From NCBI GenBank assembly GCA_008080745.1, contig SHMX01000003.1, forward strand, positions 120,001-152,000: 32,000 nucleotides of DNA, in the 5' to 3' direction. Positions 13,806-21,093 of the stretch are shown piece after piece. Source of the stretch: Candidatus Thorarchaeota archaeon. Lineage in GTDB: Archaea > Asgardarchaeota > Thorarchaeia > Thorarchaeales > Thorarchaeaceae. Numbering within the stretch: position 1 is the first letter of the stretch; the number at the start of each line of letters is the position of its first letter. Under the pieces are notes generated by a model, which saw only the letters and a program-made list of their open reading frames with translations, searched no databases and was not told the origin of the DNA. A program made the position numbers and the translations under genes.

Positions 13806-15443
13806 ATGAGTCAACAAGTACCTGTTCTTGTGTTACGCGAGGACACTGAGAGAACCCGAGGCCGCGATGCTCAAAGGAATAACATTATGGCTGCTGTAGT
13901 TATTGCAGAAGCAGTCAAGAGTGCGCTAGGTCCTAAGGGTATGGATAAGATGTTAGTCGATTCTTTTGGCGACATAACAGTTTCCAATGATGGAGCCACA
14001 ATTTTGAAGGAGATGGACGTAGCACATCCAGCAGCAAAGATGATTATTGAGGTCGCAAAGACCGTTGATGCAGAGGTTGGGGATGGAACAACCACTTCTG
14101 CTATTCTAGCCGGAGATTTACTCAGGAAAGCAGAAGACCTTCTTGATCAGAAAATTCACCCAACTACAATAATCAGTGGATATAGAAAAGCTACCGAGAA
14201 GGCCCTAGCTATTGTAGATTCAGCAGCTGAGAAAGTAGACCCAGAGGAGAAGGGATACAAGAAGATCCTCATGGACGTTGCAAAGACTTCCATGTCTAGC
14301 AAGTTCGTTTCTAACTACCGAGAACACTTGGCTAAGATTGTTGTTGATGCAGTTCTAGCAATTGCAAAAGACAAAGCAGCCGGTGACGAAATCGACATTG
14401 GTGATATTCCCAGACAGAAGCAAGAGGGATTAGGTGTCGATATGACCATGATGGTAGAAGGACTTGTCTTGGACAAAGAGATTGTCCATCCAGGTATGCC
14501 AACTAAGGCAGAGGGTGCAAAGATTGCACTACTTGAATGTCCCCTTGAAGTCACAAAGACAGAATTCGATGCAAAGATTGCTATTTCTGATCCATCCTCA
14601 ATGCAAAGCTTCCTCGATCAAGAAGAGAGCATGCTAAAAGAGATGGTTGACCAGATAGTAGCAACAGGCGCTAATGTTGTCATTGCTCAGAAAGGAATTG
14701 ATGACGTTGTTCAGCATTATCTGGCAAAGAACGGCATCTTGGCAGTACGACGAATCAAGAAATCAGACATTGAGAGAATTCACAAGACTACTGGCGCTTC
14801 TATTGTTTCAAAGATTAAGAATCTCTCCAAGGATGACCTTGGAAAGGCAAAAATTGTTCAGCAGCGAAAAGTCGGAGAGGATAAGATGCTCTTTATTGAG
14901 GGTACACCAAAGTCCTCCAGTGTAACTCTTCTTGTTAGAGGAGGTACCGATCACATCGTTGATGAAGTTGATCGTGCACTAAATGATGCACTCTATGTAG
15001 TCAGAGATGTTGTTATGCACCCATACATCACTTACGGTGGTGGTGCATTAGCTAGCGAAATCTCTAAGCAACTTAGAGACTTTGCCTCAAGCCTTGAAGG
15101 CAGAGAACAATATGCAGTCAACGCTTATGCTGATGCTGTGGAATCACTACCTATCACACTAGCTGAGAATGCTGGATTGGACCCAATTGATATTATGGTA
15201 CAATTGCGCTCAGCTCATACTGAAGGTAAGGTCACCTACGGGCTTGACATCGACAAGGGTAAGGTAGGCGATATGAAAAAGGCCAGAGTCACTGAGTCTT
15301 CTCTCGTCAACCGACAGATCATCATGTCAGCGGCAGAAGCTGCTCAGATGATTCTAAAGATCGATGACGTAATATCGAGCAAAGGTGGCGGCATGGGCGG
15401 CGGTATGCCCGGCGGACCTGGCGGCGACATGGACGAAGAATAA
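13806..15443 (+). CDS. ths: Thermosome (group II chaperonin) subunit
   Basis: [29 protein letters not shown]-terminal GGM tail; GGAGG SD upstream. Confidence 0.98.
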
Positions 15444-15459
15444 TCATATTACAAACACA

Positions 15460-15508
15460 GGATTCAGTTCGTGGTCTAACCGCGAATGAATCCTTTCAAT
15501 TCTTTTTT
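15460..15508 (+). terminator. Long hairpin plus T tract, putative terminator
   Basis: GGATTCA-G-TTCGTGG-TCTAA-CCGCGAA-TGAATCC (15460-15493), then TTTCAATTCTTTTTT. Confidence 0.6.
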
Positions 15509-15543
15509 ACAATGTTCATAATAATGGATTGATAGAAGAAATA

Positions 15544-16356
15544 TTATTTGACGTGCTCCTTTCGGGTGCGATAAGCTTCTCTTAGTTTTTCATGTTCTTG
15601 AAACATTCCAGAATCCATGAGATATTTCACGATTCCCCGGTTTAGCTCTTTTGAAACATCTGAAATCCGCTCACGAAATGCATTAATTATATCAGAATCA
15701 TTTCGTAACCATTCCAAATGTTTGATGAGAAATACAACATCCAGTAGTCTTTCTTCTTCCCTTATCTCTTCCAGAATCTGGTTTTTTGAATATAATATCG
15801 CATGTTTAAACTCCGAATTATTGCGTAAGTAAGGTATCAATAAGATGAAGGTGCTAATATGCCAATCATTACGTATTGTCGCAAAAATGAGGTCTTTTCT
15901 AGACAATATAGCGTCCTTGATTACGGGTAAATCTGACAGACCAAAACCCGCTCGAACCAAATTGATTTGATAGATAATATCAGGACAAATAGAGAGATTG
16001 TAGGCAATTGCATCAAGTATCTGTGGTTTATTATGATAATCTGGAAGAAAGTAAAGAGCTTCAAGAAGTAACGAATTTTCACAGCGCTTCAGTGACTTCG
16101 CAAAGGAGTTGATCATATCCTGTGATTGCCACAATCCAGAAATTTCTTGAAAACGAACACAGAATAAAAAATTGACTTCGTTGTTTAGAAGTACTTCTTG
16201 GGTGAGTGAAACGATTTCTTCATCGCTAGAGTAGAGTTCAACGAAGCGATTTTGGTATGTTTTGAGAATTACTAGAGGTGATTCAGATTCAATTTCGGAT
16301 ACAGTAGAGAGAGTTTTGAGGGCATCTTTTATTCTTGTATCAATTAAACCTGACAT
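15544..16356 (-). CDS. Helical-repeat (alpha-solenoid-like) hypothetical protein
   Basis: About five 32-38 aa repeats of hxxLxxxxxIxxA(I/F). Likely ATG at 16356 (ORF track 16419). Confidence 0.7.
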   Translation of the reverse strand: MSGLIDTRIKDALKTLSTVSEIESESPLVILKTYQNRFVELYSSDEEIVSLTQEVLLNNEVNFLFCVRFQEISGLWQSQDMINSFAKSLKRCENSLLLEALYFLPDYHNKPQILDAIAYNLSICPDIIYQINLVRAGFGLSDLPVIKDAILSRKDLIFATIRNDWHISTFILLIPYLRNNSEFKHAILYSKNQILEEIREEERLLDVVFLIKHLEWLRNDSDIINAFRERISDVSKELNRGIVKYLMDSGMFQEHEKLREAYRTRKEHVK

Positions 16357-16455
16357 ATCGTAAATCAACAGAATACATCTCTCATTTATAGATTTTCTAC
16401 TTGTTATCCTTGAGCGCAATTCAATGAGTATGAAAGATTATTGGAGTGGTTTTAG

Positions 16456-16608
16456 TTATACAGCAACCATGTCAGACTTGATCTCTTCAAAAAGTGATTC
16501 ATATTCTTCACGCTGTTCGTCGCTAATGTATGAGAGGACCGCGAATTTTGGCAGTGTTTCTAAATAGAGAGGATTCTCATTCATTAACCGAGCTTCAAGA
16601 TTAATCAT
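16456..16608 (-). CDS. Small acidic protein (50 aa), below the ORF-track cutoff
   Basis: ATG 16608 to TAA 16456: MINLEARLMNENPLYLETLPKFAVLSYISDEQREEYESLFEEIKSDMVAV. Amphipathic, co-oriented with the downstream gene. Confidence 0.5.
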   Translation of the reverse strand: MINLEARLMNENPLYLETLPKFAVLSYISDEQREEYESLFEEIKSDMVAV

Positions 16609-16975
16609 CAAAAATCATCACTGCATGAAAGGATATAGAGACTTTCAGAATACCACAATACAGCTTTAAGAGAAGACTTTTATGGACACCCAAAAGCTTT
16701 TCTTTTCATAGTTTTGCAGGACATAGCTGGAGTACCGCAAGCTGGTTCTGTGGAGGAATCGGTTAATGAGTTGGTGTTTGAGCAAAATTTCACAACATGA
16801 AGAAGAAAAGATACAAATGAATATTGAATTCTGGATTCATGTTGCTCATGCCAAACTCATTATGAATCAAATGTTGATAGCTGAAAAGCCAATAGAACTA
16901 CTCAGTCCAAAGGATTTGGATAACGGCTTCAACGGATAGAAAGAGTCAAACGGGATAAGGAAAAGGGTGTAATTC

Positions 16976-17635
16976 ATGTCAAAAGGCTCAAAAAAGGATA
17001 AGAAAGAGAAAAAGGAGCTAACCGAGGAGCAACGAAAACGGCTTCTCACGTACGTCCCTGGAGTGGGACCCAAGACAGCTGAGAAGCTTACTGAGGCTGG
17101 TTATGGTGAACTAGATAATCTCAGCGCCGCTGACCCAGAAGCTCTTGCAGAAGCTGTCACGGGTCTAAGCGTGTCTAAGGCAGAAGGTGTGATATCGGAA
17201 GCTGTTGATCTCAAGAAGCTGGTTGATGAAGGAAAATTTGACCCAACATCTCCCAGACGAAGAAGACGTAGAGCTCCCGAGCCAGACCCCGATGTTCATG
17301 AACTTCCTCCAGCTCAGGAAGTTAAAGCTCCTGAAGAGATTACGTCCATTGAAACGGGCCTCGAGGTAGATAACAAGGAGATGGGAATACCCGCAGGGCC
17401 AAAGTGGTTGACCCGCTTTGAAAGAGCAAGAATCGTTGGAGCACGTGCCCTTCAGATATCAATGGGCGCACCAGTACTAGTTGATATGAATACTGCTCCC
17501 AAAGAGGTCTTTGCTTTAGCTGAGGCAGAATTGAAGAATGGAGTGCTTCCCATGACCGTTCGAAGATCGCTCCCTACTGGGGAAACCTTTGATATTCCAT
17601 TAAAAGTTCTATTAGAGAATACGAGGCTGGACTGA
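16976..17635 (+). CDS. rpo6: RNA polymerase subunit Rpo6 (RpoK/RPB6/omega family) with N-terminal helix-hairpin-helix domain
   Basis: C-terminal [25 protein letters not shown]...[18 protein letters not shown] is the Rpo6 signature. N-terminal [20 protein letters not shown] is an HhH motif. Confidence 0.93.
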
Positions 17636-17735
17636 TTCCGGTCTCTTTATCCCTCTATCCAAAGATAATATATCCGTAACAATACTGCTTAAATGTCAGC
17701 AATTACTGATATTTTGGTCCAGACGAAGTGATTGC

Positions 17736-19070
17736 ATGCAAATCTTGTTCCTCAGTCCCGATTTAGTGATTCGAATCATACTCGGTTTTGCAGTGGGTGC
17801 ACTAATCGGATTAGAACGGCAAAAGCGAATGAGAGATGACCACTCTCTGGGAGTACGGTCTTTCGGACTTCATAGCCTACTTGGTTGTCTTGCAGCTTAT
17901 TCATTCATTATCTCTGGAAATCCTTTGGTATTATTTTATGCCACTGCAGTTTCCTTGATAATTTTGGCAGCTCAGATTTCCTACAAGCTCTTCAGGACAA
18001 TGAGAAAGGGAATGACTACCTCCATTGTGTTTGCATTATCTTTTGTACTGGGGGCTTTGGTAGGATTAGATGCACCACCCACACCTCCAAATCTTATTGG
18101 ACCTCTGCAACTTCTAGCTATGACAATTTCATTCATGGTGTTTCTAGTATTGGGATTTAAAGAAGAACTCGCATCAGCAGTTGCAATGGTTGAGAGAGAC
18201 GAGTTAATCAGTGCAGCAGAGCTCGGAGTGATTATTCTCTTTCTTTGGCCTCTGATTCCTCAATCGATAATGATTGGTCCAATAGATTTCCCAGTTTTCC
18301 AGATTTACATTCTTGTTGTAATTCTCTTATCAATCAGTTTTGCAAACTACATTTTAGTTAAAAAGTACAAAGACAAGGGTACATATTTCTTCGGACTGTT
18401 TGGAGGATTTGCAAATAGTGAAGCAACAGTTACCAGTCTTACGGATTTTCATTGTAGAACTGGAAGGAAACATCCAGATAGAATAGCCGTTTCCGCGATG
18501 TTTGCAAATCTTGCAATGGTTATTAGAAATGCAGCTCTTATATTAATCATCGATCCAAGTGTTGCAATTCTCCGATTCTATGCAGTACCCGTTATTATTC
18601 TAATAAGTCTAGGATTCTTTAGGGGATTGCATGTACGGCGTAGCAACATTATAGATTCTGAGGAAGACGAGGAGATCGATACAACCAAAATATCGCCATT
18701 TGAGTTCACAGCAGCACTTAGATTCGCCATTGTCTTTACTGGTGTTTCACTTGTTTCTTTATTGTTACAAGAATTTCTCAGTGATGCAGGTATACTTCTT
18801 GCAGCTATTATTGGAGGATTTGCCTCAGCAGGAGCTGTTGTTGCAGTAGCTGCATTGGCTTATACAAATGGAACAGTCATTCTAGCCACTGCTGTTTTTG
18901 CAGTTATTATAGCCACAACTATGTCTGTTCTAAACAAAATCATCTATGTTTATGCGGCTGATAGAGACCATCTATTGGCAAAGAAAGTAGCCATGGATTC
19001 TCTGACCTTAGCAACAGGAGTTTTGGTTTATATTCTGCTCCTAGCTTCAGGATTAATCCAAATATTCTAA
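17736..19070 (+). CDS. MgtC/SapB-family membrane protein with DUF4010 domain
   Basis: GALIGLERQ and GVRSFGL MgtC motifs, GLFGGFANSEATV DUF4010-type motif, about 13 hydrophobic segments. Confidence 0.88.
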   Translation: MQILFLSPDLVIRIILGFAVGALIGLERQKRMRDDHSLGVRSFGLHSLLGCLAAYSFIISGNPLVLFYATAVSLIILAAQISYKLFRTMRKGMTTSIVFALSFVLGALVGLDAPPTPPNLIGPLQLLAMTISFMVFLVLGFKEELASAVAMVERDELISAAELGVIILFLWPLIPQSIMIGPIDFPVFQIYILVVILLSISFANYILVKKYKDKGTYFFGLFGGFANSEATVTSLTDFHCRTGRKHPDRIAVSAMFANLAMVIRNAALILIIDPSVAILRFYAVPVIILISLGFFRGLHVRRSNIIDSEEDEEIDTTKISPFEFTAALRFAIVFTGVSLVSLLLQEFLSDAGILLAAIIGGFASAGAVVAVAALAYTNGTVILATAVFAVIIATTMSVLNKIIYVYAADRDHLLAKKVAMDSLTLATGVLVYILLLASGLIQIF

Positions 19071-19164
19071 CCTACACAAAAGGACTACAACGAGGGAAAT
19101 ACTTTCGGAATCACCGTTAACTGCTTGTGTAAGTTCTAAAGAAATAGTTCATAAATAAACGATA

Positions 19165-19635
19165 ATGAAGGTATATCAGTTAATAGGTATAATATTGGAG
19201 CGAATATGGTTGACGGAGCAGCATTCAGATCTTATTAGATATGCCCGAGAGTCCATAGATTCAGACAAACATGAGGATGATATGCATCCTTTCTCATTGT
19301 ATGTATGTGAGGTGTGTTTGAAATATACACCCCTCGAAATAACACTCAGATTCAACACCGACCAAGTTTTGTTACCTCTGAATTCCTTCATTGGACATAT
19401 TCAAGGAAAATGCAGTTCATGTGGCAAGACCACTCTGCTTATGAGTAATAGTGATGAAGATGATACGACCAGTAGAATTTTTCCTGTTTGTTCTTGTGGA
19501 AGCAAGCAATTTATTGCAGGCATGTGTGAACGAATTCAGGGAGAGAAAGGTATCCCTGGATTATTCGAAAAGAGAGTAATCGTGGCTAAATGCGCTCGAT
19601 GCTCCAAAATACAGACAATTGCATTCACTGAGTGA
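19165..19635 (+). CDS. Cys-rich putative two-zinc-site protein
   Basis: CEVC, CSSC, CSC and CARC motifs; start uncertain. Confidence 0.65.
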   Translation: MKVYQLIGIILERIWLTEQHSDLIRYARESIDSDKHEDDMHPFSLYVCEVCLKYTPLEITLRFNTDQVLLPLNSFIGHIQGKCSSCGKTTLLMSNSDEDDTTSRIFPVCSCGSKQFIAGMCERIQGEKGIPGLFEKRVIVAKCARCSKIQTIAFTE

Positions 19636-19782
19636 TTTCGTAACATTTATAGTTAAAATGTGAGGGTGAAGTTTTGGTGACAATATGATAGCTGGTGGCT
19701 TAGTTCATCAATTGGAATAAACTGCTTAGTGTTAGTAAGGCTACCCGCACCTGTTACCGGAACGATTTCTGGAGACGATACA

Positions 19783-21093
19783 ATGAGTGAAATGAGAACA
19801 GTACGCGGTATGCGAGACCTGATGGGGTCTGAGATGCGTGTGAAAGATTACCTAGTTCAAACAGTAACAGACGTCTTCCAGCTATTCGGGTACGAATCGC
19901 TCGATTCACCGGTAATGGAATTGTGGGAAACCCTCTCTGCAAAGGGTGGAGAAGATGTGGAAGCAGAGGTTTTCAAGTTCACAGATAAAGGCGACCGTGA
20001 AGTTGGTATGCGTTTTGATTTGACTGTTCCTCTGGCAAGAATAGTATCATCTAATCCACATTTACCTAAACCATTCAAAAGATATGCAATAGGTAAGGCA
20101 TGGAGATATGATAGACCCCAAGCAGGAAGATATCGAGAGTTCATGCAAGCAGATGTAGATGTGATTGGATCTGATAGTCCCGTTGCGGATACTGAGGTTG
20201 TAATGGTAGCACTTGAGGCACTGCGCAGATTGTTGGGGAGTGACTACCAAGTTAGAATCAATAGTCGTAAAGTACTCAAAGGTCTAACTGAACGAGCAGG
20301 TGTTGCTGATGATTTAGCATTCGATTGCTTCAGGGCAATAGATAAGCTCGATAAAATTGGTAGAAATGGAGTATTAGATGAATTGGAAGAACGGGGTATC
20401 GATGATTCCGCGAGTGATTTTCTTCTGGATTCTATTACGCTTCGTGGAAGCGGTAGGACCATCCTTGAGGATTTTATGTCCGTAATGGAAGGTTCGAATG
20501 TTGGAGCACAGGGTGTTCAAGAGCTAATGGTAATGGCAGATATCTTTGATGAATGCGAGGTTGCGAATCAAATCAAATTCGACCTCTCATTAGCAAGAGG
20601 ATTAGATTACTATACAGGACCCGTCTTTGAAGTTGCATACTTGGGAGAACCAGAGGTTGGATCTATCGGTGGTGGAGGAAGATATGACCATCTAATTGGC
20701 AAATTTGGTGGACCCGACACCCCAGCAACAGGAATATCCCTTGGGATCGACCGTTTGCTTGATATATTGCTGGCAAAGAATATAGAAGAAAAGATGGACT
20801 CACCAATCAGTGTGTTCATAGCTCCAATCAAGCAACCAATGGTTAAACACGGAATGAAAATCATGAGGAGTCTTGTCGAGGTAGGAATTCCATGTGAGAT
20901 TGATCTGATGGATCGACCGTTAGGAAAACTTCTAAGTCTTTCAGACGATAGAGGTGCACAGTACACCATCATCGTTGGTAAAAGGGACCTTCAGAAGAAT
21001 GAGGTTTCACTTAGAGATATGACTACTAAGGAAACGGAACAGGTCGATATAGATAATATCGTAACTCGAATGAAGAGTCTTCTGGGCAAATAG
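19783..21093 (+). CDS. hisS: Histidine--tRNA ligase
   Basis: VRGMRD, MRFDLTVP, motif 2 WRYDRPQAGRYREFMQ, LARGLDYYTG, GGGRYD, C-terminal anticodon domain. ATG 19783 with GGAG SD (ORF track 19729). Confidence 0.97.
   Translation: MSEMRTVRGMRDLMGSEMRVKDYLVQTVTDVFQLFGYESLDSPVMELWETLSAKGGEDVEAEVFKFTDKGDREVGMRFDLTVPLARIVSSNPHLPKPFKRYAIGKAWRYDRPQAGRYREFMQADVDVIGSDSPVADTEVVMVALEALRRLLGSDYQVRINSRKVLKGLTERAGVADDLAFDCFRAIDKLDKIGRNGVLDELEERGIDDSASDFLLDSITLRGSGRTILEDFMSVMEGSNVGAQGVQELMVMADIFDECEVANQIKFDLSLARGLDYYTGPVFEVAYLGEPEVGSIGGGGRYDHLIGKFGGPDTPATGISLGIDRLLDILLAKNIEEKMDSPISVFIAPIKQPMVKHGMKIMRSLVEVGIPCEIDLMDRPLGKLLSLSDDRGAQYTIIVGKRDLQKNEVSLRDMTTKETEQVDIDNIVTRMKSLLGK

What the first reader, a model, noticed from the sequence alone, without database searches (positions are those of the whole stretch)
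16976..17635. RNA polymerase subunit Rpo6 fused to an N-terminal helix-hairpin-helix domain through an Arg-run/Pro-acidic linker
Seen: the last ~80 aa are a clear Rpo6/RPB6 core. In front are a Lys-rich tip ([14 protein letters not shown]), a ~60-aa HhH domain (aa ~20-80, [12 protein letters not shown]...[11 protein letters not shown]), an SPRRRRRR run and a Pro/Glu linker, all in one frame. Known: typical archaeal Rpo6 is only the short core; eukaryotic RPB6 has a disordered acidic N-tail but no HhH; HHH_5-type domains occur in the RadA/Rad51 N-termini and NusA acidic repeats, and the bacterial RNAP alpha-CTD has a related fold. Inference: this polymerase may carry its own flexibly tethered DNA- or factor-binding module, an archaeal analogue of alpha-CTD. 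It could also be an intermediate toward the extended eukaryotic RPB6 N-terminus. I cannot confirm it is undescribed.
Basis: partly seen in the sequence, partly recalled or inferred. Interest (0 to 1): 0.82.

Follow-up and report, generated by a model that had tools for sequence, protein, structure and literature searches.

The report
Thorarchaeal Rpo6 with tethered HhH arm
The only RNA polymerase subunit Rpo6 of this Thorarchaeota (Asgard) genome really does carry an extra helix-hairpin-helix domain on a conserved charged linker; the whole family keeps it under strong selection, it was mentioned once in a 2026 paper, and its function (probably a built-in nucleic-acid or factor-binding arm) is untested.

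Summary
Window 16976-17635(+) is one 219-aa ORF: a charged tip, an (HhH)2 domain (Pfam HHH_5, 47 bits), an Arg6 patch, a Pro/acidic motif and an Rpo6 core (NCBIfam RpoK, 98 bits; 1.3 A to Rpb6). It is the genome's only rpo6.

The fusion is not a misassembly. About 80 of 85 genomes of the window's GTDB family (Thorarchaeota) have it. Five others checked have no rpo6 assembled. It is absent from the sister family and from 31 other Asgard families.

The HhH domain (dN/dS 0.06) and the linker motif KSKRKK-APEPEPD-x-HELPP (0.03) are as constrained as the core (0.045). M1 and a GGTG ribosome-binding site are conserved. The internal Met is not.

The module is closest in sequence to accessory HhH modules on Topo VI-A and L32e of the same genome. 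In structure it is closest to the NusA acidic repeats.

The best reading is a tethered, weak, non-specific DNA-binding arm (about 0.45). The main rival is a protein-docking module (about 0.3). "Intermediate toward eukaryotic RPB6" is not supported.

The architecture was noted in one sentence in 2026 (PMC13257274). This scan has also found it on other genomes.

The parts
16976..17635 (+). rpo6 (rpoK) gene, 219 aa plus stop; the only rpo6 of the genome
16937..16975 (+). Conserved thermosome-rpo6 intergenic remnant (TAG-AAAGAGTCAAACG...GGGTG...), with an SD-like GGTG at 16966-16969, 6 nt before the ATG
   Evidence: the same spacer and GGTG occur in nearly all of 27 related loci; one search gives the sequence
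16976..17023 (+). N-terminal charged tip, aa 1-16. Lys-rich here (net +4) and acidic in most relatives (median -4). Predicted disordered and fast-evolving.
   Evidence: pLDDT below 50; dN/dS 0.45
17024..17230 (+). (HhH)2 domain, aa 17-85: five helices, a first hairpin P-G-V-G-P-K and a degenerate second hairpin G-L-S-x-x-K; net charge -6
   Evidence: fold; dN/dS 0.058; charge; nearest paralogues
17231..17272 (+). Basic patch, aa 86-99. The Arg6 run is at 17255-17272. It is KSKRKK in most relatives; net +6.
17273..17311 (+). Near-invariant Pro/acidic motif A-P-E-P-D/E-P-D-x-H-E-L-P-P, aa 100-112
   Evidence: invariant or near-invariant E102, P103, P105, H108, L110; dN/dS 0.027 for aa 86-112
17312..17380 (+). 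Pre-core segment, aa 113-135, with conserved L-x-T-G and helix 128-135. It corresponds to the N-terminal segment of the long crenarchaeal-type Rpo6.
   Evidence: dN/dS 0.067; 85-88 residues align to Sulfolobus Rpo6
17381..17632 (+). Rpo6/Rpb6 core, aa 136-219
   Evidence: rmsd 1.3 A to Rpb6; dN/dS 0.045
13806..15443 (+). Thermosome (group II chaperonin). In relatives it lies about 38 nt upstream of rpo6 on the same strand, probably in one operon.
15444..16936 (.). Genus-specific insertion of about 1.5 kb between the thermosome and rpo6. It contains a 291-aa minus-strand ORF (15544-16419) with no Pfam hit.
17736..19070 (+). MgtC/DUF4010 membrane protein, the conserved downstream neighbour (followed by HisRS at 19729-21093)

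Best explanation
This is the genuine, sole Rpo6 subunit of a Thorarchaeota RNA polymerase. Its C-terminal 84 residues form the ordinary Rpo6 core, which clamps the two halves of Rpo1 at the base of the clamp next to Rpo5 and the stalk. In front of the core, a pre-existing charged N-tail has acquired a folded (HhH)2 domain followed by an invariant +6 basic patch and a stiff Pro/acidic motif. I read HhH plus basic patch as a bipartite, low-affinity, sequence-independent duplex nucleic-acid grip held on a tether of about 40 residues. Such a grip could reach DNA at the entry or exit of the cleft and stabilise polymerase-DNA complexes during initiation and/or elongation. That would make it a built-in counterpart of Sulfolobales Rpo13 and of engineered polymerase-DNA-binding-domain chimeras. 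Shown here: the architecture, the fold, sole-copy status, family-wide conservation, purifying selection and the conserved start. Inferred: incorporation into RNAP, DNA as the ligand, and the effect on transcription.
For: Architecture and fold. Sole rpo6 in a 98%-complete genome. The fusion is present in every genome of the family checked that has an rpo6 and in named Thorarchaeota MAGs. Selection: dN/dS is 0.058 for HhH, 0.027 for the basic/PEP motif and 0.045 for the core. M1 is invariant, a GGTG SD is conserved, and Met136 is not conserved. Nucleic-acid reading: the first hairpin is a canonical G-V-G-P-K, and K37 and K68 are invariant. The nearest sequence relatives of the domain are accessory HHH_5 modules on Topo VI-A and ribosomal protein L32e of the same genome (40 bits, against 18.5 for RadA). 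An invariant +6 patch abuts the domain. The unit HhH + basic patch + PEP motif is duplicated as a whole in P0003 and P0004. Other Asgard families attach Lys-rich, H1-like tails at the same Rpo6 N-terminus. Geometry and precedent from papers: the Rpb6 N-tail can reach the Pol II cleft (PMC9935396). Rpo13 binds downstream dsDNA non-specifically through a Lys-rich tail (PMC3479171). A DNA-binding domain tethered by about 30 residues changes the template selectivity and salt tolerance of T7 RNAP (PMC12630135).
Against: The HhH domain itself is acidic (median net -5, here -6), whereas the Top6A, L32e and S25e modules carry +3 to +6. Its second hairpin is degenerate (G-L-S). Its best structural matches are the NusA acidic repeats AR1/AR2 (Z 10.5-11.1, rmsd 1.3-1.7 A over 69 residues), which bind proteins rather than DNA. 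The extreme conservation of APEPEPD-x-HELPP is more than a spacer needs and suggests a specific protein contact. No binding data, no expression data and no structure of a Thorarchaeota RNAP exist. A single Topo V HhH unit on T7 RNAP did not improve salt tolerance.
Confidence: 0.45

Rival explanations
1. Protein-docking module. The acidic (HhH)2 domain, like NusA AR1/AR2 or the RAD51 N-lobe, recruits a basic partner to the polymerase. Candidates are a transcription factor such as TFE, TFB or Spt4/5, a histone tail, or a lineage-specific regulator. The PEPEPD-HELPP motif would be a second short linear docking motif.
For: The best structural matches are NusA AR1 (Z 11.1), E. coli NusA AR1 (Z 10.5) and NusA AR2 from its complex with RNAP alpha-CTD (Z 8.9). 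A RAD51 N-lobe bound to a histone H4 tail is among the Foldseek matches (8xbw). The domain has net charge -5 and a degenerate second hairpin. The linker motif has dN/dS 0.027. The eukaryotic RPB6 N-tail is a factor-docking site for the TFIIH p62 PH domain (PMC8754651). PMC13257274 proposes contacts with Rpo5 and Rpo1 and 'stimulation of transcription'.
Against: No partner has been identified. The closest sequence relatives of the module sit on nucleic-acid enzymes. The canonical first hairpin and the flanking +6 patch are typical of DNA binders. Fold similarity among (HhH)2 domains does not discriminate ligands.
Confidence: 0.3
2. Cleft-occupying or auto-regulatory tail. The alternating acidic and basic segments act as a DNA mimic or gate that occupies the DNA-binding cleft of idle polymerase, as the yeast Rpb6 N-tail does. 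The HhH domain would serve mainly as a bulky plug or spacer.
For: The charge pattern -4 / -5 / +6 / -4 / -2 in front of the core is conserved. The sister family has the same acidic-basic-acidic tail without the HhH. The yeast Rpb6 NTT has been seen in the active-centre cleft, where it is incompatible with nucleic acids (PMC9935396).
Against: In this genus the extreme tail has switched from acidic to Lys-rich (+4) without loss of the gene. A folded, strongly constrained HhH domain (dN/dS 0.058) is not needed for a charge mimic.
Confidence: 0.1
3. Structural or assembly role. The extension stabilises the Rpo1-Rpo5-Rpo6 corner of the enzyme or assists assembly, in line with the omega/Rpb6 role in folding the largest subunit and with the conserved thermosome-rpo6 operon.
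For: In relatives rpo6 follows the thermosome gene by about 38 nt. PMC13257274 interprets elongated Rpo6 forms as compensating for changes in Rpo1 and Rpo8. Rpo6 joins late, together with Rpo1 (PMC13556214). Both Rpo5 genes of this genome are also remodelled, with a long eukaryote-like N-domain.
Against: A mobile HhH domain on a 40-residue tether is an odd way to stabilise a subunit interface. All other Asgard families manage without it.
Confidence: 0.1
4. Annotation artefact: only the core is made, from an internal start, or the fusion is an assembly error.
For: An in-frame Met136 lies just before the core. No RNA or peptide data are available.
Against: The fusion occurs in about 80 independent genomes and in hundreds of metagenomic proteins. 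The N-part has dN/dS 0.03-0.06. M1 is invariant with a conserved SD, and position 136 is Met in only 28 of 51 sequences.
Confidence: 0.02

Closest known systems
Archaeal Rpo6/RpoK = eukaryotic Rpb6 (RPABC2) = bacterial omega
   Same: aa 136-219 is a bona fide member: it passes the Pfam and NCBIfam thresholds, superposes on Rpb6 at 1.3 A, shares about 40% identity with Sulfolobus Rpo6, and is the sole copy in the genome.
   Different: It carries 135 extra N-terminal residues that include a folded (HhH)2 domain. No solved or characterised Rpo6, Rpb6 or omega has a folded extra domain.
Long Rpo6 of Thorarchaeota noted by Shematorova and Shpakovski 2026 (PMC13257274)
   Same: It is the same protein family. 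They reported a long N-terminal sequence with a helix-hairpin-helix-type element (citing Shao and Grishin) and AF3 models with Rpo1, Rpo5 and Rpo8.
   Different: [quoted passage not shown]
NusA acidic repeats AR1/AR2 (bacterial transcription factor)
   Same: They are the best structural matches (Z 10.5-11.1, rmsd 1.3-1.7 A over 69 residues). They are acidic (HhH)2 domains that act on RNA polymerase at the end of a flexible tether.
   Different: Identity is only about 20%. They sit on a dissociable factor rather than a core subunit, and they bind proteins (lambda N, alpha-CTD). No homology beyond the common fold is shown.
RadA/Rad51 N-terminal (HhH)2 domain and Topo V HhH repeats
   Same: All belong to the HHH_5 family. 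Identity is 39-44% with rmsd 1.6-1.8 A to RadA N-domains, which are acidic with a G-x-S second hairpin. Topo V repeats are seen bound to DNA (8df7).
   Different: Within the window's own genome the RadA N-domain is the most distant HHH_5 paralogue (18.5 bits, against 40 for Top6A and L32e).
Sulfolobales Rpo13
   Same: It is a lineage-specific RNAP component with a Glu-rich and a Lys-rich segment. It binds downstream dsDNA non-specifically and sits beside Rpo5 (PMC3479171). This is a functional analogy.
   Different: It is an unrelated protein (a helix-turn-helix, molten-globule type) and a separate subunit, not an Rpo6 domain.
Bacterial RNAP alpha-CTD
   Same: The concept is the same: a small helical DNA- and activator-binding domain on a flexible linker of a core subunit.
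   Different: It is on a different subunit at the C-terminus. Alpha-CTD was not among the top fold matches here, so the resemblance is by analogy only.
Eukaryotic RPB6 N-terminal tail
   Same: It occupies the same position on the polymerase and is flexible and charged. It can enter the cleft (PMC9935396) and docks TFIIH p62 (PMC8754651).
   Different: The eukaryotic tail is disordered, acidic and has no HhH. The Thor fusion is not on the lineage leading to eukaryotes.

Membership tests
Rpo6/RpoK/Rpb6 (PF01192; NCBIfam NF002207) | Sequence profile score above the curated cut-off | tested here: met
   PF01192 scores 29.2 bits (cut-off 26); NF002207 scores 97.7 bits (cut-off 71)
Rpo6/RpoK/Rpb6 (PF01192; NCBIfam NF002207) | Rpb6 core fold | tested here: met
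   AF2 core pLDDT is above 90. Foldseek gives rmsd 1.3 A over 72-73 residues to Rpb6 in many Pol I, II and III structures, and 85-88 residues align to Sulfolobus Rpo6.
Rpo6/RpoK/Rpb6 (PF01192; NCBIfam NF002207) | It is the genome's functional orthologue (no second copy) | tested here: met
   There is one PF01192 hit in the 98%-complete genome.
Rpo6/RpoK/Rpb6 (PF01192; NCBIfam NF002207) | Physical incorporation into RNA polymerase at the Rpo1 clamp base | not testable with these tools
   This needs purification or a structure of Thorarchaeota RNAP.
(HhH)2 domain, Pfam HHH_5 (PF14520) | Profile score above the cut-off | tested here: met
   47.3 bits (cut-off 27), aa 22-76
(HhH)2 domain, Pfam HHH_5 (PF14520) | Five-helix fold with two helix-hairpin-helix motifs | tested here: met
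   AF2 helices are 17-25, 32-41, 46-50, 54-60 and 66-84 (pLDDT about 85). VIA gives Z 8-11 to NusA AR, Hef HhH and Pol X. Foldseek gives rmsd 1.6-1.8 A to the RadA N-domain.
(HhH)2 domain, Pfam HHH_5 (PF14520) | G-h-G hairpins that contact DNA phosphates | tested here: inconclusive
   The first hairpin G-V-G-P-K is invariant. The second is G-L-S-x-x-K, degenerate as in RadA.
(HhH)2 domain, Pfam HHH_5 (PF14520) | Non-sequence-specific DNA binding | not testable with these tools
   The complex tool takes no DNA. The net charge of -5 argues for caution.
NusA acidic-repeat type (protein-binding HhH2) | Close structural match and acidic surface | tested here: met
   Z 10.5-11.1, rmsd 1.3-1.7 A over 69 residues; net charge -5
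NusA acidic-repeat type (protein-binding HhH2) | Sequence-level homology to NusA AR, or a known protein ligand | tested here: not met
   Identity is only about 20%. No NusA family appears in the Pfam or NCBIfam hits. No partner is known.
Bacterial RNAP alpha-CTD | Fold match to alpha-CTD | tested here: inconclusive
   Alpha-CTD is not listed in the 50 best rows of Foldseek/PDB or of VIA-wide. The 2jzb hit is its NusA AR2 chain.
Eukaryotic-type RPB6 N-terminal tail | Disordered acidic tail shared with the lineage nearest to eukaryotes | tested here: not met
   The fusion is confined to one Thorarchaeota family. The Hodarchaeota Rpo6 examined is short.

The most novel reading that the evidence does not exclude
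Thorarchaeota RNA polymerase carries, as part of a core subunit, a general-factor-like arm whose acidic HhH domain and adjacent basic patch read chromatin or promoter-flanking DNA. It could grip histone tails or histone-wrapped DNA as the RAD51 N-lobe does, or act as an alpha-CTD-like UP-element and activator receptor. Together with this lineage's eukaryote-like Rpb5 jaw domain, it would show Asgard archaea experimenting with polymerase-borne DNA and chromatin handling before eukaryotes delegated this to TFIIF, TFIIH and elongation factors.
Probability: 0.12. Interest if true: 0.8.

Novelty: new variant of a known kind. Interest (0 to 1): 0.5.

Why it matters
Core subunits of cellular RNA polymerases are among the most conservative proteins known. 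A folded nucleic-acid-type domain permanently tethered to Rpo6 means that every polymerase of a whole Asgard family carries an extra arm that model archaea and eukaryotes lack.

If it binds DNA, it is a natural counterpart of the engineered polymerase-DNA-binding-domain chimeras and of Rpo13. It would show a third independent way of holding DNA at the cleft periphery, alongside the alpha-CTD in bacteria and the Rpb5 jaw and general factors in eukaryotes. If it binds a factor, it defines a new recruitment site on archaeal RNAP.

The hypothesis is cheap to test with recombinant protein. It does not bear directly on eukaryogenesis, because the fusion is a lineage-specific side branch.

Tried and rejected
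1. Complex prediction of the N-module (aa 1-135, alignment A2) with the two long Rpo5 paralogues gave no verdict (score 0.01, mark 0.32). It is not evidence either way.
2. Public RNA runs: none was listed for window 16500-17800, so there is no expression evidence and read laying was not used.
3. The first genome-contig scan with the single protein found no relative. The alignment-based scan worked.
4. The Asgard primase preprint (10.1101/2025.10.19.683342) was checked for HhH appendages. Its 'hhh' is only a hydrophobic-motif notation, so it is irrelevant.
5. Pfam Rpb8 (PF03870) found nothing in the genome, but it also rang in no control genome, so it is uninformative.
6. The sigma-70 promoter and terminator scan gave nothing above shuffles and does not apply to archaea.
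7. Rejected: RadA as donor of the HhH module. It is the most distant paralogue.
8. Rejected: a second core-only rpo6 in G327. That frame is cut by the contig end.
9. Rejected: stand-alone versions of the N-module. The short hits P0127, P0128, P0131, P0135 and P0137 are truncated or frameshifted fragments.
10. Alpha-CTD was not listed among the fold matches. The absence is not conclusive.
11. The NCBI labels 'Lokiarchaeota' (P0002) and 'Hodarchaeota' (P0016) on two fusion proteins were not taken as evidence of wider distribution. P0002 corresponds to G336, which has the same genus as the window and lies in the Thorarchaeota family.

Full report
OBSERVATION. Window 16976-17635 (+) is one uninterrupted 219-aa ORF, and the opposite strand is closed. 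Pfam places HHH_5 at aa 22-76 (E 3e-12, 47.3 bits against a cut-off of 27) and RNA_pol_Rpb6 at aa 143-192 (29.2 against 26). The NCBIfam RpoK equivalog NF002207 scores 97.7 bits against 71 over aa 133-218. PDB sequence search gives Sulfolobus Rpo6/K at E 2e-16 for aa 140-207. For the N-part it gives the Rad51/RadA N-domain, Topo V HhH repeats and the N-terminus of Haloarcula L32e.

STRUCTURE. AlphaFold2 with a 51-sequence alignment gives a disordered tip (aa 1-14), a five-helix domain (helices 17-25, 32-41, 46-50, 54-60, 66-84) and a coil from 85 to 127. The stretch aa 100-135 has moderate confidence (pLDDT 70-81), followed by a short helix at 128-135 and a core with pLDDT above 90. The core superposes on Rpb6 of Pol I, II and III at 1.3 A and on Sulfolobus Rpo6 over 85-88 residues, so helix 128-135 belongs to the long crenarchaeal-type Rpo6. 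The N-module folded alone matches RadA N-domains (rmsd 1.6-1.8 A, 39-44% identity), DNA-bound Topo V repeats, and NusA AR1/AR2. An aligner that does not depend on Foldseek ranks NusA AR1 first (1u9l Z 11.1, 5lm9 Z 10.5, rmsd 1.3-1.7 A over 69 residues). NusA AR2 follows (2jzb chain B, Z 8.9), then Hef HhH, Pol X, FAAP24 and Rad51. Alpha-CTD itself was not listed.

IS IT REAL AND WHERE DOES IT OCCUR. The genome (3.16 Mb, 98% complete) has a single PF01192 hit, which is this gene. The protein database holds hundreds of proteins of 216-262 aa with HHH_5 plus Rpb6. In 400 genomes of the phylum, full-length matches (query 1-219, 51-88% identity) occur in about 80 of 85 genomes of the window's own GTDB family and nowhere else. 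The one genome of the other family in the same order and all 31 further families match only aa 130-219. Five of the family genomes without a fusion were checked and have no rpo6 assembled at all. An apparent second, core-only copy in G327 is cut by a contig end. Named records with the fusion are Thorarchaeota, for example SMTZ1-45. Helarchaeota, Hodarchaeota, Odinarchaeota, Baldrarchaeum, Bathyarchaeia and Nitrososphaerota match the core only. G322 of the family is the MAG 'Candidatus Thorarchaeota archaeon CSMAG_407'. A search for Rpo6 cores inside proteins of at least 159 aa returned only this architecture among its 120 best hits.

THE N-PART IS TRANSLATED AND CONSTRAINED. In 51 orthologues M1 is invariant and S2 nearly so. 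Invariant positions include V30-G31-P32, K37, G63, S65, K68, G86, R97, P105 and G128. Nei-Gojobori dN/dS was computed over 20 non-independent pairs with dS of 0.05-1.5. It is 0.45 for the tip, 0.058 for the HhH domain, 0.027 for aa 86-112, 0.067 for aa 113-135 and 0.045 for the core. In relatives the ATG lies about 38 nt after the thermosome stop codon, behind a conserved spacer with GGTG 6-9 nt upstream. The window keeps this spacer at 16937-16975. The artefact and internal-start readings are therefore essentially excluded.

THE LINKER IS A MOTIF, NOT A SPACER. The consensus after the domain is G-x-x-D-L-x-x-K-x-KSKRKK-APEPEPD-x-HELPP. This genus has R6 in place of KSKRKK. The charge layout is conserved: tip -4 (here +4), HhH -5, basic patch +6, PEP motif -4, pre-core -2 and core +4. 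In P0003 and P0004 the whole unit of HhH, basic patch and PEP motif is tandemly duplicated. An exhaustive profile search with the N-module (1.84 billion representatives) found the extended unit only in front of Rpo6 cores (P0122, P0125, P0133). Everything else matched the HhH part alone, and the short 'stand-alone' hits are truncated or frameshifted at the A-rich Lys run.

ORIGIN. The sister-family protein (G311, 153 aa) has the same acidic - basic - acidic - L-x-T-G tail but no HhH. The domain therefore looks inserted into a pre-existing charged tail at the base of the family (inference). In the window's genome HHH_5 modules also sit on Topo VI-A (4 copies), ribosomal L32e (2 copies), S25e, two HEAT proteins and RadA. 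With the flanks removed, the Rpo6 domain is nearest to Top6A repeat 4 and L32e repeat 1 (40 bits; 58-59 bits with the family profile). RadA is farthest (18.5 and 30.8 bits). Other Asgard families carry Lys-rich, H1-like tails (G124, G125, G129, G128) or short Lys-rich tails (Hel, Odin) at the same Rpo6 N-terminus. Hod-, Baldr- and Loki-type proteins are short.

MECHANISM. Established knowledge places Rpo6/Rpb6 at the clamp base next to Rpo5 and the stalk (PMC13545438; PMC13257274). The yeast Rpb6 N-tail can reach into the active-centre cleft (PMC9935396). A 40-residue tether therefore lets the HhH domain reach DNA at either end of the cleft. I favour a bipartite, weak, non-specific duplex grip formed by the hairpins and the +6 patch. 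This is analogous to Rpo13 (PMC3479171) and to engineered tethered DNA-binding domains (PMC12630135). My confidence is about 0.45. The acidity of the domain, its degenerate second hairpin and the NusA-AR structural matches keep a factor-docking function alive at about 0.3. A cleft-mimic or auto-regulatory tail and a structural or assembly role each get about 0.1. The assembly idea draws some colour from the conserved thermosome-rpo6 operon.

WHAT COULD NOT BE SHOWN. No RNA run was listed. The single complex job, the N-module against the two long Rpo5 paralogues, returned no verdict. The tools cannot model DNA.

PRIOR KNOWLEDGE AND NOVELTY. Full-text searches found one paper that mentions the feature. 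[quoted passage not shown] They show AF3 models with extra Rpo6-Rpo5 and Rpo6-Rpo1 contacts. Okuda et al. still state that most archaeal RpoK lack an N-tail (PMC8754651). This scan has met the same architecture in at least five other genomes, and one follow-up reached the same reading. New here are the strict family-level distribution, sole-copy status, selection profile, the conserved linker motif and its duplication, the conserved start and operon, the paralogue-based origin, and the acidic, NusA-AR-like character of the domain. I classify the finding as a new variant of a known kind, already noted once in print, with an interest of 0.5.

Noticed in passing
window 15444-16936: A ~1.5-kb insertion lies between the thermosome and rpo6. 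It is seen only in this genome and its congener (L003); in other Thorarchaeota the two genes are about 38 nt apart. It carries a 291-aa minus-strand ORF (15544-16419) with no Pfam hit. The old intergenic spacer, including the former thermosome TAG, survives at 16937-16975, so rpo6 probably needs a new promoter here.
   Followed up: partly
window 13806-21093 and loci L043-L053: The gene order thermosome - HhH-rpo6 - MgtC/DUF4010 - HisRS, all on one strand, is conserved across Thorarchaeota. An earlier scan note reports rpoK directly behind a thermosome in another genome. A chaperonin next to the omega/Rpb6 homologue recalls (from my memory, not checked) the reported GroEL dependence of omega-less E. 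coli RNAP.
   Followed up: partly
window 19165-19635: A 156-aa Cys-rich ORF with several CxxC pairs and no Pfam hit sits between MgtC/DUF4010 and HisRS. In other Thorarchaeota loci that gap is only about 130-170 nt, so this looks like a second genus-specific insertion.
   Followed up: no
own genome outside the window: G000 C4:69412-71979(+), C12:15136-16188(-), C1:72325-73200(-), C1:140541-142151(+), C2:208526-209173(+): HHH_5 modules are fused to several housekeeping proteins: Topo VI subunit A (4 N-terminal copies, 855 aa), ribosomal L32e (2 copies), ribosomal S25e (a C-terminal copy) and two HEAT-repeat proteins. These copies are basic (+3 to +6) with Lys-rich spacers, unlike the acidic Rpo6 copy. 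The distribution of these fusions outside this genome was not examined.
   Followed up: partly
own genome outside the window: G000 C3:205385-206680 (locus L135 1483-2058 and 2122-2679, minus strand): Two tandem Rpo5/RpoH genes of 191 and 185 aa each have an N-terminal restriction-endonuclease-fold (Mrr_cat-like) domain plus Rpb5_C. Eukaryotic Rpb5 chains align about 60 residues into the N-domain. The scan has already flagged this (e1-5448250 in the same genome, and e1-5383607).
   Followed up: partly
proteins P0003 (325 aa) and P0004 (320 aa): These are Rpo6 variants in which the whole unit of HhH, basic patch and PEPxPD-x-ELPP is tandemly duplicated in front of the core.
   Followed up: partly
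proteins P0127 and P0131 (metagenomic fragments): Several database fragments of the fusion derail exactly at the A-rich codons of the KSKRKK patch. These are probably homopolymer sequencing or assembly errors. This genus encodes the patch as Arg6 instead.
   Followed up: no
loci L124-L127 (G124, G125, G129, G128) and L080, L102: Other Asgard families carry 60-90-aa Lys-rich, histone-H1-like low-complexity tails followed by an acidic stretch on the Rpo6 N-terminus. Helarchaeota and Odinarchaeota have shorter Lys-rich tails. The Rpo6 N-terminus seems to be a recurrent attachment point for polycationic appendages in Asgard archaea.
   Followed up: partly
protein P0133 (272 aa): This is a divergent HhH-Rpo6 with a ~70-aa poly-acidic N-tail and a variant linker (HFKRKK...EPEHITLPP). 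Its source lineage was not determined.
   Followed up: no
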